Assembly (NCBI RefSeq): GCF_044324875.1
Contig: NZ_CP172185.1
Origin: Escherichia coli
Lineage (GTDB): Bacteria > Pseudomonadota > Gammaproteobacteria > Enterobacterales > Enterobacteriaceae
DNA length: 64,000 nt
Strand: one strand, 5' to 3'
Shown here: piece by piece, positions 32,793 through 34,801 of the stretch
Layout of the letters: each line of letters opens with the position of its first letter
How positions within the stretch are numbered: position 1 is the first letter of the stretch
Notes under the pieces: model-generated
The model's input: only the letters and a program-made list of their open reading frames with translations
Told to the model about the DNA's origin: nothing
The model's database searches: none
Translations under genes and position numbers: made by a program

Positions 32793-34355
32793 TCATGATT
32801 TATTGATTAAATACTCCACCGATTTTAGGTCATCATTCTGAACTGCCATAAATTTCACATCACCAGTTTTACTATCAATTACCATTGCTTGCTTCTCATT
32901 AACACCAATATAATTCACAACTAACATAATAGCATTTCCTAAACGCTTCATTTTTATATTTTTAATAACACGTTTAATCTTCACATTAAAATTAAGTCTT
33001 AAATTAGTATTCTTAGAGTCGAGCAAATCATCAGTGCACGATTCTTTTAAATCGCTAAATTTTTCATAACCAACATTTGATTGTTTCAACCTAGTAATTT
33101 CAGTTCGTATTTCGCTAATACGACGTTGGAGGTTTTTTAGTATACGTCTATCATTAGGGTCAGGTATGTATTCCTTTTCCATGTCTGCGAGTATTTCGCT
33201 ACTATAATTTTCTTTTGTAGCTAGCTCTATTGAAAGATAGTTTATTTTAATTTGTATATCATCATCGTTTGACCTCAACATAGAAAAGTCAAAATTCCTG
33301 ATATGTTCCAATAAAGCATTTTCTATAATCTTGTATTTGAAACCTCTTTCTTTGCATTTATCAATTTTCAATAGACTCCCACCACAACGAAAGTATGTAT
33401 CACCTTTTTTATCGACAGAATTAACTTGGACATATCTGCCACAATTCATACATATGCATAATCCTGCAAATAAATTATTAGCTTTTACATTTACTTTTCC
33501 CAACGGGTTTCTCTGCTTTCGTAAATCATTTACAGTTTCAAATAATGATTGTTCAACAACCACTGGATAGATAATCATACCATCTAAAATTTTACGTCCC
33601 GTAGAATTGAATTTACCAATAAGCCTTTGATCTTTAATTATTTTAACCAAATGATTAATAGTCGGCTCACTTTCATTTATCTGCATTTTTTTCTTTTTTA
33701 GTTCATCACGGATTGCAGCAGGTCCAAATCCATCAGCATACATTTTAAAAATAAGGTTGAACTTCTCAGCCTCACCTTCTTTTATCACATACTTATTATT
33801 TTTAACTTCTATCCATGATGGCACTCGATGTGTTAAAACAGATGTTCCTTCGATAGTATTTTTTATTCTTTCATCCCAGTTTTTAATACTTAAGCGAGCT
33901 TTGCGTTTACTTTCATTATGTGCTCGCTGTAAACCTCCTGAAATAATATTCAGATCACTATATTGGTGATGTATCATTTCTGTTTCTACTTCATGAATAT
34001 CGCATCCAGCATTAATCAAGCTCAAGAATAATCCTGCGGCTCGGTTGGGTGCGGCTCTACTAAAGCGGTCTAGGTTTTCAATGACTAACACTGAATTAGT
34101 GATCTTTTTCTGTAACACATCATCTATAAAGTTTTTCAGTACAGAACCATCTTCGATATTTTTTCCGCTATATGCAGATACACCTTCGGCATACAACCAA
34201 CTAATATCCCCAAACTCATAGCCACGGTTATGTTGAGAATCATCGTATGCAGCAACGTAATCTCGCAGCATTGTTTGCTGTCTCGACATGCCATAGCCAT
34301 CTTTAGCTTGTCCTCTCGAACTGACACGAGCGTAGCAATACACCGCTTTTTTCAT
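32793..34355 (-). CDS. large serine recombinase (island integrase)
   Basis: 520-aa ORF; N-terminal resolvase domain YCYARVSSRGQ with VIENLDRFSR, Cys-rich zinc ribbon CICMNCGRY...YFRCGG, C-terminal coiled coil; 41 bp from the island/ppdD junction. Confidence 0.85.
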   Translation of the reverse strand: MKKAVYCYARVSSRGQAKDGYGMSRQQTMLRDYVAAYDDSQHNRGYEFGDISWLYAEGVSAYSGKNIEDGSVLKNFIDDVLQKKITNSVLVIENLDRFSRAAPNRAAGLFLSLINAGCDIHEVETEMIHHQYSDLNIISGGLQRAHNESKRKARLSIKNWDERIKNTIEGTSVLTHRVPSWIEVKNNKYVIKEGEAEKFNLIFKMYADGFGPAAIRDELKKKKMQINESEPTINHLVKIIKDQRLIGKFNSTGRKILDGMIIYPVVVEQSLFETVNDLRKQRNPLGKVNVKANNLFAGLCICMNCGRYVQVNSVDKKGDTYFRCGGSLLKIDKCKERGFKYKIIENALLEHIRNFDFSMLRSNDDDIQIKINYLSIELATKENYSSEILADMEKEYIPDPNDRRILKNLQRRISEIRTEITRLKQSNVGYEKFSDLKESCTDDLLDSKNTNLRLNFNVKIKRVIKNIKMKRLGNAIMLVVNYIGVNEKQAMVIDSKTGDVKFMAVQNDDLKSVEYLINKS

Positions 34356-34396
34356 TTTATTTTCCCTAAAATCATAACAGTAAAAAGCAGTATATC

Positions 34397-34801
34397 ATGG
34401 TGGTTATTGGCATCATTGCCATTTTAAGCGCCATTGGTATTCCCGCTTATCAAAACTACCTGCGCAAAGCCGCACTCACCGACATGCTACAAACCTTTGT
34501 GCCTTACCGTACCGCCGTAGAGTTGTGCGCGCTGGAACATGGTGGATTAGATACCTGCGACGGTGGCAGTAATGGCATCCCCTCGCCTACCACTACCCGC
34601 TATGTTTCAGCCATGAGTGTGGCAAAGGGCGTGGTGTCGCTGACCGGGCAAGAAAGTCTCAATGGGCTAAGCGTCGTCATGACGCCGGGTTGGGATAACG
34701 CAAACGGCGTCACCGGTTGGACGCGCAACTGCAATATTCAAAGTGACAGCGCATTGCAGCAAGCCTGCGAAGATGTCTTCCGCTTTGATGACGCCAACTA
34801 A
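34397..34801 (+). pseudogene. ppdD: ppdD 3' portion (codons 13-146) lacking the prepilin leader and its own promoter
   Basis: MVVIGIIAILSAIGIPAYQNYLRKAALTDM... matches the mature PpdD pilin from residue 13; island DNA immediately upstream. Confidence 0.75.

What the first reader, a model, noticed from the sequence alone, without database searches (positions are those of the whole stretch)
32793..34408. Large serine recombinase and candidate att arms with inverted ACAGTAA motifs
The 520-aa recombinase (resolvase catalytic domain, zinc ribbon, coiled coil) ends 41 bp from the right junction. Joining the island ends reconstructs a putative attP: ...CATAACAGTAAAaagcagtatatc-ATGGTGGTTATT-aACAGTAAaTTACTGTacaaa... 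The motif ACAGTAA (34378-34384) and its inverted copy TTACTGT (24821-24827) flank the shared 12-bp core, and a 15-bp perfect palindrome ACAGTAAATTACTGT sits at 24813-24827. This is the imperfect inverted-repeat geometry expected of serine-integrase att sites and implies ppdD codons 12-16 are the attB.
Basis: partly seen in the sequence, partly recalled or inferred. Interest (0 to 1): 0.5.

Follow-up and report, generated by a model that had tools for sequence, protein, structure and literature searches.

The report
Serine-integrase island inserted in ppdD pilin gene
A 9.6-kb mobile island carrying uncharacterised cargo has been spliced into the E. coli type IV pilin gene ppdD by its own large serine integrase, and comparison with relatives in eight other enterobacterial genera pins the attachment sites and the crossover to a 5-bp stretch; it is a well-behaved new member of a known class, not a new mechanism.

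Summary
The right-hand ACAGTAA is at 34377-34383, not 34378-34384. The '12-bp core' is 11/12 identical.

The 520-aa ORF is an intact large serine recombinase (LSR): Pfam Resolvase+Recombinase+Zn_ribbon, an A118-integrase profile hit, and an AF2 model whose best PDB matches are the SPbeta, PhiC31 and Bxb1 integrases.

The island (about 24804-34400) splits ppdD at codons 13/14. LSR homologues of 39-88% identity in Enterobacter, Hafnia, Pseudescherichia, Klebsiella, Serratia, Yersinia and Edwardsiella sit at the same ppdD position. In the five relatives with both junctions recovered, attL/attR identity shrinks to ATGGT.

In six elements the P and P' arms mirror each other about ATGG|T. Their outer motifs differ by lineage but co-vary between arms. 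The same motif recurs in attB 5 bp closer to the centre, which is the published LSR zinc-ribbon-motif signature. The inner half of the 15-bp palindrome is not conserved.

The island differs by 1 bp in 9.6 kb from that of strain MSI001, while the flanks differ by 2-3% starting 41 bp from the crossover. That indicates recent site-specific transfer. No circle junction was found.

Verdict: new member of a known kind.

The parts
24764..24847 (+). 5' stub of ppdD. It holds codons 1-13 plus the first base of codon 14 (to 24803), then island sequence from 24804, giving a 27-codon ORF MDKQRGFTLIELMVVINSKLLYKYRIC*.
   Evidence: RefSeq annotates the same stub as WP_071883250.1 in the occupied genomes.
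24784..24827 (.). attL. The B half-site is about 24784-24803 and the P' half-site is 24804-24827 (TGGTCATTAACAGTAAATTACTGT).
   Evidence: Junction comparison with K-12 attB. Half-site alignment across six elements.
24803..24804 (.). Predicted crossover dinucleotide GT in attL, the dyad centre ATGG|T. Exchange is shown only to lie within 24800-24807 in E. coli, or within ATGGT family-wide.
   Evidence: C/T mismatch at 24808 versus 34405, and K-12 has T. attL/attR identity is ATGGTG, ATGGTC, CTGATGGTG and ATGGT in relatives. The dyad centre is the same in six elements.
24813..24827 (.). 15-bp perfect palindrome. Only its outer half, TTACTGT at 24821-24827 (positions +18 to +24), mirrors the P-arm motif and is conserved in relatives. 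This outer half is the candidate zinc-ribbon-domain (ZD) motif of P'.
25191..26468 (+). Cargo gene A, 425 aa from the RefSeq start. No domain or family hit. It has more than 448 homologues across Proteobacteria and Cyanobacteria.
26474..27571 (+). Cargo gene B, about 365 aa. It is always adjacent to gene A, including in Pseudomonas and Nostoc. No domain hit.
27709..28296 (-). Small serine recombinase (resolvase/invertase type, 185-195 aa). It belongs to the island backbone and does not determine the integration site.
   Evidence: phrog_125 DNA invertase, E=7e-59. NCBIfam hits. It is retained in sister islands at thiM, yggR/yggS and ffs that use other integrases.
28815..30258 (-). Two backbone genes of unknown function: a 119-aa protein whose hydrophobic N-terminus looks like a signal peptide, and a 346-aa protein whose hydrophobic N-terminal segments look membrane-spanning. 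Both readings are from the sequence by eye.
   Evidence: Conserved in sister islands.
30725..31241 (.). Conserved noncoding element directly 3' of the helicase-like gene. It is a candidate replication origin with iterons, or a structured RNA.
   Evidence: 90% identical to the Hafnia island, where the whole 3.8-kb aligned block containing it, mostly coding, is 78%. Present in 84 of 5426 E. coli genomes and never annotated. No Rfam hit. TTCGCT occurs 6 times in 350 bp. There are 9 compensatory pairs on the + strand against 2 on the - strand.
31242..32717 (-). Backbone gene, 477-491 aa, with a P-loop and ResIII/DEAD-like N-terminus (phrog_2467, function unknown). Candidate replication protein.
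   Evidence: Conserved next to the integrase in sister islands.
32793..34355 (-). Large serine recombinase, 520 aa. It has the RVSS nucleophile motif (S12) and the DRFSR motif (96-100).
   Evidence: Pfam. Invariant residues. Profile hit to A118 integrase 4KIS, E=2.6e-9. AF2 model, pLDDT 81. Foldseek top hits are the SPbeta, PhiC31, Bxb1 and A118 integrases.
34371..34398 (-). Promoter-like site (ATGATA-16-TGTTATGAT) for the LSR gene. It lies inside the P arm and overlaps the ACAGTAA motif. This is a consensus match only.
34377..34420 (.). attR. The P half-site is 34377-34400 (ACAGTAAAAAGCAGTATATCATGG), with ACAGTAA at positions -24 to -18. The B' half-site is about 34401-34420. The predicted crossover GT is at 34400-34401.
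34397..34801 (+). 3' remainder of ppdD, from codon 13 onward. It lacks the leader peptide, the prepilin-peptidase cleavage site and Glu5 of the mature pilin.

Best explanation
The window holds an integrated 9.6-kb mobile island bounded by attL (about 24784-24827) and attR (about 34377-34420). The island's own large serine recombinase (32793-34355, minus strand) inserted it into codons 13/14 of the type IV pilin gene ppdD.

Proposed mechanism, by analogy with A118/Bxb1-type integrases:
- LSR dimers bind a roughly 48-50-bp attP on the circular island: ACAGTAAAAAGCAGTATATCATGG.TGGTCATTAACAGTAAATTACTGT.
- LSR dimers also bind a roughly 40-bp attB in ppdD: TACACTTATCGAACTGATGG.TGGTTATTGGCATCATTGCC.
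- The zinc-ribbon domains read an nCAnTnA-type motif at positions 18-24 of each attP half-site and at positions 13-19 of each attB half-site.
- The enzyme makes 2-bp staggered cuts, most likely at the central GT, rotates subunits and religates.

What is shown: the junctions, the identity of attB, confinement of the exchange to ATGGTGGT (ATGGT family-wide), the arm symmetry with its covariation, the 5-bp motif shift, LSR family membership, and recent horizontal spread of the island as a discrete unit.

What is inferred: the exact GT dinucleotide, present-day activity of the enzyme, any excision factor, and the phenotypic consequence. That consequence would be loss of functional PpdD pilin, and probably polar loss of hofB/hofC expression.
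For: 1. LSR identity.
- Pfam Resolvase, Recombinase and Zn_ribbon_recom.
- R10/S12 and D96-R97-x-x-R100 are invariant or nearly invariant in 21 homologues.
- The profile hits the A118 integrase C-terminal domain, E=2.6e-9.
- The AF2 model has the coiled-coil helices. The best PDB folds are the SPbeta, PhiC31, Bxb1 and A118 integrases.

2. Empty site.
- K-12 ppdD reads ...GAACTGATGGTGGTTATTGGCATC.... This equals the B arm of attL joined to the B' arm of attR.
- 5418 of 5424 complete E. coli genomes with a match lack the island.

3. Junctions are identical in the four occupied genomes fetched. The LSR gene plus P arm is 100% identical in all six and absent elsewhere.

4. The C (attL) versus T (attR and attB) mismatch places the exchange 5' of base 9 of the 12-mer. 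In relatives, attL/attR identity is only ATGGTG, ATGGTC, CTGATGGTG, ATGGTG and ATGGT.

5. Nine LSR homologues of 39-88% identity abut a ppdD truncated at the same codon. They come from Enterobacter (two species), Hafnia, Pseudescherichia, Yersinia, Serratia, two Klebsiella-type elements (L017, and L022 identified through their shared small recombinase) and Edwardsiella.

6. P and P' match at 13-15 of 24 positions about ATGG|T in six elements. The outer blocks differ by lineage (ACAGTAA; ACTATA...TTAGC; ACYGTATTATAGC) but mirror each other within each element.

7. The attP outer block matches the attB half-sites best when shifted 5 bp inward. The summed score is 114/240 against 43-82 at all other shifts, and shift 5 is best in five of six elements. 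This is the geometry established for LI integrase: ZD motif at 16-24 in attP and 11-19 in attB (PMC3783163).

8. The island differs from that of MSI001 at 1 of 9597 bp. The flanks differ at 26/900 and 19/1104 bp, with the nearest differences 41 bp and about 170 bp from the crossover.

9. Sister islands with the same backbone but other integrases sit at other sites. The integrase, not the small recombinase, therefore specifies the site.
Against: - No excised circle or attP junction was found. There were 0 hits in viral contigs and only 3 chance hits in metagenome contigs.
- In a single element, the dyad symmetry is not above background if every centre is allowed.
- The six elements are not independent. 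Three have closely related attP sites, and all the attB sites are orthologous, so the shift-5 statistic is partly pseudo-replicated.
- One homologue (Phytobacter, L012) is joined to a different gene, so site specificity is not absolute.
- No recombination directionality factor was identified, and nothing shows that the enzyme is active today.
Confidence: 0.85

Rival explanations
1. The island is a fixed relic. The LSR once integrated it, but the element is now immobile. It spreads only vertically, or by homologous recombination of flanking chromosomal DNA after transduction or conjugation.
For: - No attP circle junction was found in public contig collections.
- The island occurs in only 6 of 5426 genomes.
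- No excision factor is recognisable.
Against: - The LSR ORF is intact with all catalytic residues.
- It is 100% identical in at least three chromosomal backgrounds.
- Near-identity between the window and MSI001 stops within 41 bp (left) and about 170 bp (right) of the crossover. Transfer with flanking homology would carry flank identity further out.
Confidence: 0.1
2. The small serine recombinase (27709-28296), not the 520-aa protein, is the enzyme that inserted the island. The large protein serves another role.
For: It is an intact serine recombinase with an HTH. Paired direct repeats lie just upstream of it.
Against: - It has no recombinase or zinc-ribbon domains. It matches DNA invertase/resolvase families.
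- Near-identical copies occur in sister islands at thiM, yggR/yggS and ffs, which use different integrases. It therefore does not track the site.
- The LSR clade tracks ppdD across genera.
Confidence: 0.03
3. The repeated ATGGTGGTYATT is a target-site duplication made by a transposase-type insertion. The ACAGTAA motifs would then be chance matches in AT-rich DNA.
For: - A 12-bp near-direct repeat flanks the island.
- ACAGTAA is not rare in the window.
- The unrestricted dyad scan is not significant.
Against: - The repeat is imperfect in a way explained by attP/attB parentage.
- Its length varies from 5 to 9 bp in relatives, unlike a fixed-length duplication.
- No transposase is encoded.
- The motif position and its mirror image are conserved and co-vary in six elements.
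Confidence: 0.02

Closest known systems
Listeria phage A118 / L. innocua prophage (LI) serine integrase, which integrates into the competence gene comK
   Same: - Same domain order: catalytic NTD, alpha-E helix, recombinase domain, and zinc ribbon with an embedded coiled coil.
- attP half-sites of about 24 bp with a distal motif.
- The same motif lies 5 bp closer to the centre in attB.
- The target lies inside a competence-related gene. Durrant et al. report that LSR targets are enriched for competence genes (PMC10083194).
   Different: - Only about 16-18% sequence identity in the structural alignment.
- The element is a 9.6-kb island with no phage structural genes, not a prophage.
- The target is the conserved N-terminal (N-methyl) coding region of a type IV pilin.
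- The protein has an extra C-terminal beta-rich domain, residues 464-515.
Bxb1, PhiC31 and SPbeta serine integrases
   Same: Full-length fold matches, Foldseek E from 1e-10 to 2e-13. Recombination in these enzymes is unidirectional attP x attB with a 2-bp central dinucleotide. Bxb1 also uses GT, as the PDB entry title shows.
   Different: No cognate directionality factor was identified here. There is no experimental activity. The enzyme is carried by a non-phage island.
Integrase-only defence-carrying mobile islands of E. coli (Hochhauser, Millman & Sorek 2023, PMC10121019), including hotspot #6, yggS-yggR
   Same: Small islands with one or more integrase/recombinase genes, no other recognisable mobility genes, and variable cargo. 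A sister island with the same backbone and a 27%-identical LSR occupies yggR/yggS.
   Different: ppdD does not appear in the text or in the held supplementary tables of that survey (some files were truncated). The cargo here matches no PADLOC, Pfam or NCBIfam family.

Membership tests
Large serine recombinase (serine integrase) family | N-terminal resolvase-type catalytic domain with the serine nucleophile and conserved Arg/Asp residues | tested here: met
   Pfam Resolvase over residues 5-125. The motifs YARVSS (S12) and DRFSR (96-100) are invariant or nearly invariant in 21 homologues. TP901-1 catalytic domain hits.
Large serine recombinase (serine integrase) family | C-terminal recombinase domain plus zinc-ribbon domain with Cys ligands | tested here: met
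   Pfam Recombinase over 195-282 and Zn_ribbon_recom over 295-353. C302, C305 and C334 are invariant, and C324 is nearly invariant. The profile hits A118 integrase CTD 4KIS, E=2.6e-9.
Large serine recombinase (serine integrase) family | Coiled-coil motif embedded in the zinc-ribbon domain | tested here: met
   The AF2 model (pLDDT 81) has antiparallel helices 364-394 and 400-425 after the zinc-ribbon strands. The full-length fold matches the SPbeta, PhiC31 and Bxb1 integrases. This is a prediction, not a solved structure.
Large serine recombinase (serine integrase) family | attP of about 50 bp and attB of about 40 bp, each an imperfect inverted repeat about a 2-bp crossover shared by both sites | tested here: met
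   P and P' match at 13-15 of 24 positions about ATGG|T in six elements. The centre lies inside the 5-bp attL/attR identity block. A single element is not significant on an unrestricted scan. With centres restricted to the crossover interval, P is 0.002-0.04 in three of four elements. Minimal site lengths were not measured.
Large serine recombinase (serine integrase) family | Distal (ZD) motif displaced about 5 bp toward the centre in attB relative to attP | tested here: met
   The shift scan peaks at +5 bp, sum 114/240 against 43-82 elsewhere. Reference geometry comes from PMC3783163. The elements are partly non-independent.
Large serine recombinase (serine integrase) family | Catalyses unidirectional attP x attB recombination; excision needs a directionality factor | not testable with these tools
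No circle junction was found in public contigs. No RDF candidate was recognised.
Temperate phage / prophage | Structural, packaging and lysis genes | tested here: not met
   PHROGs hits are limited to the two recombinases and one family of unknown function. The island is 9.6 kb. The LSR has no relative above about 28% identity in 50,697 phage records.
Known phage satellites (P4-like, PICI, cfPICI, PLE) | Family-specific marker genes, such as the P4 alpha primase with psu/delta/sid, PICI alpA/pri-rep with terS/ppi, or capsid genes | tested here: inconclusive
   None of these was recognised by PHROGs or NCBIfam. However, there is a helicase-like gene followed by a conserved repeat-bearing noncoding element, and relatives carry a CI-like repressor. 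This layout resembles a rep-ori module. SatelliteFinder was not available.
Known anti-phage defence systems (for the 425+365-aa cargo) | Match to a PADLOC, Pfam or NCBIfam defence model | tested here: not met
   No significant hit. The defence role is inferred only from the cargo slot, which holds Hachiman, DarTG, retron RT, GmrSD, NB-ARC/STAND or Cap4-nuclease genes in sister islands.

The most novel reading that the evidence does not exclude
This LSR may define an undescribed, Enterobacterales-wide clade of integrases specific for the conserved N-methyl coding segment of the competence pilin gene ppdD. It would serve a modular family of small integrative, possibly replicative or satellite-like, elements.

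Features of that family:
- Interchangeable integrases: two LSR types and at least two tyrosine integrases, at ppdD, yggR/yggS, thiM and ffs.
- A conserved helicase-like gene followed by a 0.5-kb noncoding element.
- A small serine recombinase next to a slot that exchanges anti-phage cargo.
- In this window, the slot holds a widespread, domain-less two-gene module.

Insertion and excision might also act as a switch for type IV pilus and competence function, as with comK phages in Listeria.
Probability: 0.25. Interest if true: 0.6.

Novelty: new member of a known kind. Interest (0 to 1): 0.4.

Why it matters
1. It gives a ready-to-test LSR/attP/attB triplet whose natural attB is present in nearly every complete E. 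coli genome searched, including K-12. That could serve as a native landing pad for single-copy integration, or as a new orthogonal integrase.

2. It shows that ppdD is a cross-genus integration site for islands whose variable slot carries anti-phage systems. The site does not appear in the text or the held supplementary tables of the E. coli hotspot survey consulted (some of those files were truncated).

3. The six-element comparison is a natural mutagenesis series. The attP distal motifs co-vary with LSR lineage while attB stays nearly constant, which is useful for understanding or re-programming zinc-ribbon-domain specificity.

4. Insertion destroys the major pilin of the Sxy-regulated DNA-uptake and type IV pilus apparatus. 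This fits the reported enrichment of LSR targets in competence genes.

Tried and rejected
- **Excised circle.** The exact 24-mer across the reconstructed attP gave no hit in viral contigs. A degenerate 21-mer in metagenome contigs gave 3 hits with unrelated flanks, so they are chance matches.
- **Unrestricted dyad-symmetry scan as a stand-alone test.** It was not significant. I replaced it with a scan restricted to the mapped crossover interval and with cross-element comparison.
- **A promoter split by integration.** I considered a -35 element in P' and a -10 element in P. I dropped the idea because the scan tool finds a complete promoter-like site inside the P arm itself, and the hexamers I picked by eye are not conserved in Hafnia or Edwardsiella.
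- **The inner half of the palindrome as a second binding site.** Rejected, because it is not conserved in Enterobacter or Hafnia.
- **The genome-contig scan with the LSR alignment.** It returned only 4 loci. Contexts were obtained through exact-protein look-ups instead.
- **attL of the Phytobacter, Pseudescherichia, Serratia and E. sichuanensis elements.** Not within the fetched flanks.
- **Literature.** No paper in the searchable library links ppdD with a serine recombinase or an integrase att site.
- **Noncoding element 30725-31241.** No hit in Rfam, plasmid or phage searches.
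Full report
**1. What is in the sequence**

The window carries the E. coli nadC-ppdD-hofB(gspE) region. ppdD begins at 24764 and reads normally for 13 codons plus one base (MDKQRGFTLIELM, then the G of Val14). From 24804 the sequence is foreign. GC content falls from 52-54% to 29-42% between about 24800 and 34400.

ppdD resumes at 34397 (ATGGTGGTTATTGGCATC...) and continues into hofB/gspE. The pattern ATGGTGGTYATT occurs exactly twice in the 64 kb, at 24800 and 34397, against 0.02 expected. 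The two copies differ at the ninth base: C at 24808, T at 34405.

- The palindrome at 24813-24827 and TTACTGT at 24821-24827 are correct.
- ACAGTAA is a common heptamer here: 9 copies against 5.8 expected.

**2. The recombinase**

The ORF at 32793-34355 (minus strand, 520 aa) starts 41 bp from the repeat.

- It has the Pfam Resolvase, Recombinase and Zn_ribbon_recom domains.
- The nucleophile motif YARVSS and the DRFSR motif are invariant or nearly invariant in 21 homologues.
- A profile of the family hits the A118 (LI) integrase C-terminal domain, 4KIS, at E=2.6e-9.
- An AF2 model (pLDDT 81) shows the catalytic domain, helix alpha-E (135-168), the recombinase domain, the zinc-ribbon strands, two long antiparallel helices (364-394 and 400-425) and an extra C-terminal beta domain.
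- Its best PDB matches are full-length SPbeta, PhiC31, Bxb1 and A118 integrases, E down to 2e-13.

It is therefore a bona fide large serine recombinase. It has no relative above about 28% identity in 50,697 phage or 72,556 plasmid records.

**3. attB and the empty site**

K-12 ppdD reads ...CTTATCGAACTGATGGTGGTTATTGGCATCATT.... This is exactly the left arm of attL joined to the right arm of attR.

- Of 5426 complete E. coli genomes, 5424 match the flanks and only six carry the island.
- The LSR gene plus P arm is 100% identical in those six and absent from all others, even at blastn sensitivity.
- The four occupied genomes I fetched have junctions identical to the window.
- attB has T at the ninth base. 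attL, whose right part derives from attP, has C. So attP carries C, and strand exchange happened 5' of that base, within ATGGTGGT.
The '12-bp core' is really a patch of attP/attB similarity.

**4. Relatives**

Homologues of the LSR were found at 86-89% (Enterobacter), 72-74% (Hafnia, E. sichuanensis) and 39-45% identity (Yersinia, Serratia, Klebsiella, Edwardsiella, Pseudescherichia, Phytobacter).

- In nine of ten contexts examined, the LSR start codon faces a ppdD homologue truncated at the same codon, next to hofB/hofC. Where the far end was reachable, a 20-31-codon N-methyl stub sits beside nadC or ampD.
- The Phytobacter element is the exception. It abuts a different gene, although the junction still reads ATGGTGGT.
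- attL/attR identity is ATGGTG (Enterobacter, Klebsiella-type), ATGGTC (Hafnia), CTGATGGTG (Edwardsiella) and only ATGGT (Yersinia). The crossover must therefore lie within ATGGT.

**5. Arm geometry**

All half-sites were written outer-to-centre about ATGG|T.

- P and P' match at 13-15 of 24 positions in each of six elements.
- The outer blocks differ between lineages but mirror each other within each element:
  - ACAGTAA / ACAGTAA in E. coli and Hafnia;
  - ACTATATTTTAGC / ACTTTAAATTAGC in the Klebsiella-type element;
  - ACTGTATTATAGC / ACCGTATTATAGC in Yersinia;
  - ATTTACTAT in both arms in Edwardsiella.
- This arm-to-arm covariation is what one protein reading both half-sites predicts.
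- The inner half of the E. coli palindrome (24813-24819) is AACAGCAA in Enterobacter and AACAATGA in Hafnia. The perfect palindrome is therefore incidental.

Statistics:
- A scan of all centres in one attP is not above shuffles.
- With centres restricted to the mapped crossover interval, the perfect outer block has P=0.02 (E. coli), 0.04 (Hafnia) and 0.002 (Edwardsiella). ATGG|T is the best or tied-best centre in all four elements tested.
- The dyad centre predicts the central dinucleotide GT, at 24803-24804 and 34400-34401. This is an inference.

**6. The attP/attB offset**

Rutherford et al. showed for LI integrase that the zinc-ribbon-domain motif occupies positions 16-24 in attP and 11-19 in attB, a 5-bp inward shift (PMC3783163).

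I slid the attP outer block (positions 16-25) along the attB half-sites. The match peaks at +5 bp: 21, 19, 18, 18, 20 and 18 of 40 in the six elements, sum 114. Other shifts sum to 43-82, and only Yersinia has a higher value at another shift.

In E. coli, ACAGTAA(A/T) aligns with ACACTTAT and with GCAATGAT (the reverse complement of B'). The elements are not fully independent: the attB sites are orthologous and three attP sites are related. Still, the result is what the LSR model predicts and nothing else obviously does.

**7. Evidence that the island moved recently as a unit**

The window was compared with strain MSI001.

| Region | Differences | Nearest to the crossover |
|---|---|---|
| Island (9597 bp) | 1, at 26681 | - |
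| Left flank (900 bp) | 26 | 24763, 41 bp away |
| Right flank (1104 bp) | 19 | 34570, about 170 bp away |

The other occupied genomes show at least three flank haplotypes. This argues for site-specific insertion into diverged chromosomes. It argues against vertical descent and against co-transfer with long flanks.

I did not find the circular junction in viral or metagenome contigs. Present-day excision is therefore unproven, and no directionality factor was recognised.

**8. Which recombinase sets the site**

The block 27715-32757 holds the small serine recombinase, the 119-aa and 346-aa genes, a noncoding element and the 491-aa ResIII-like gene. It recurs at 85-97% identity in other E. coli genomes:
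- at thiM, with a tyrosine integrase;
- at yggR/yggS, with a 598-aa LSR only 27% identical to this one;
- at ffs/ybaA, with tyrosine integrases.

The site therefore follows the integrase and not the small recombinase.

The cargo slot differs in each island: Hachiman, STAND, retron RT, GmrSD, NB-ARC/TPR, DarTG, Cap4 nuclease or SIR2. yggS-yggR is hotspot #6 of Hochhauser et al. ppdD appears in neither that paper's text nor its held supplements.

**9. Consequence for the host (inference)**

The stub lacks most of the pilin. The 3' fragment lacks the leader, the cleavage site and Glu5, so PpdD is inactivated. hofB and hofC are also separated from the ppdD promoter.

Durrant et al. report that LSR targets are enriched for DNA-competence genes (PMC10083194). 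From general knowledge, ppdD-hofBC belongs to the Sxy-regulated competence and type IV pilus set, so this case fits that trend.

**10. Verdict**

The finding is real and the interpretation essentially right. It needed correction of one coordinate, one base of attP, the meaning of the '12-bp core', the palindrome and the codon range.

It is a new member, and apparently a new clade with a new target, of a thoroughly characterised kind of system. No literature on ppdD as an att site was found.

Noticed in passing
window 30725-31241: A roughly 520-bp noncoding element lies directly 3' of the 491-aa ResIII-like gene.
- It is 90% identical to the Hafnia island, where the whole 3.8-kb aligned block containing it, mostly coding, is 78%.
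- It occurs in 84 of 5426 E. coli genomes and is never annotated.
- It is absent from the plasmid and phage collections and has no Rfam hit.
- It is closed by a long-range inverted repeat (30755-30775 with 31221-31241).
- TTCGCT occurs six times in 350 bp.
- RNAalifold gives 9 compensatory pairs on the + strand against 2 on the - strand.
It is a candidate origin with iterons, or a structured RNA.
   Followed up: partly
window 25191-27571: The cargo is a pair of genes (425 aa and about 365 aa) with no Pfam, PADLOC, NCBIfam or PHROGs match. Gene A has more than 448 homologues at 52-89% identity in Vibrio, Pseudomonas, Shewanella, Nostoc, Paracoccus and others. The two genes stay adjacent in Pseudomonas (L025) and Nostoc (L026). 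The pair sits in the slot that holds known anti-phage systems in sister islands, so it is a candidate uncharacterised defence module.
   Followed up: partly
window 27715-32757; L003, L004, L027, L028, L029: The same island backbone is found with four different integrases at four chromosomal sites in E. coli: ppdD, yggR/yggS, the thiM riboswitch and ffs/ybaA. The defence cargo differs each time. This looks like a modular family of small integrative elements with swappable integration modules.
   Followed up: partly
window 28289-28340 and 27715: Two 24-bp direct repeats (AGTATCATTTAAATT...) lie over or just upstream of the small serine recombinase start. They may be a res or operator site. Homology between sister islands breaks within a few bases of that gene's 3' end (27715), which suggests cargo exchange happens at this boundary.
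   Followed up: no
window 30488-30586: A cluster of ATCGATCAA-containing repeats, partly palindromic (TGATCGATAAAAACGATCA), lies in the noncoding stretch upstream of the conserved element. One copy scores as a terminator-like hairpin on the minus strand.
   Followed up: no
L012 about 9990-10080 (Phytobacter diazotrophicus): A 43%-identical LSR has the usual P arm (ACTGTATAGTAGCATGATACATGG). It is joined through ATGGTGGT to the upstream region of an HTH-regulator gene instead of ppdD. This could be a secondary or pseudo-attB, or a retargeted lineage. By my own hand alignment, not a tool result, the B' half resembles the ppdD B' half at about 9 of 19 positions.
   Followed up: partly
window 34371-34398 (minus strand): A promoter-like site with an extended -10 for the LSR gene lies wholly inside the attP P arm and overlaps the ACAGTAA motif. 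Integrase binding could therefore autoregulate its own transcription. This is a consensus match only.
   Followed up: no
LSR residues 464-515 (window about 32808-32966): The AF2 model shows an extra beta-rich C-terminal domain after the coiled coil and zinc-ribbon domain. It was not examined further. It is conserved in length in the close homologues but extended in the distant ones, which are 550-622 aa.
   Followed up: no
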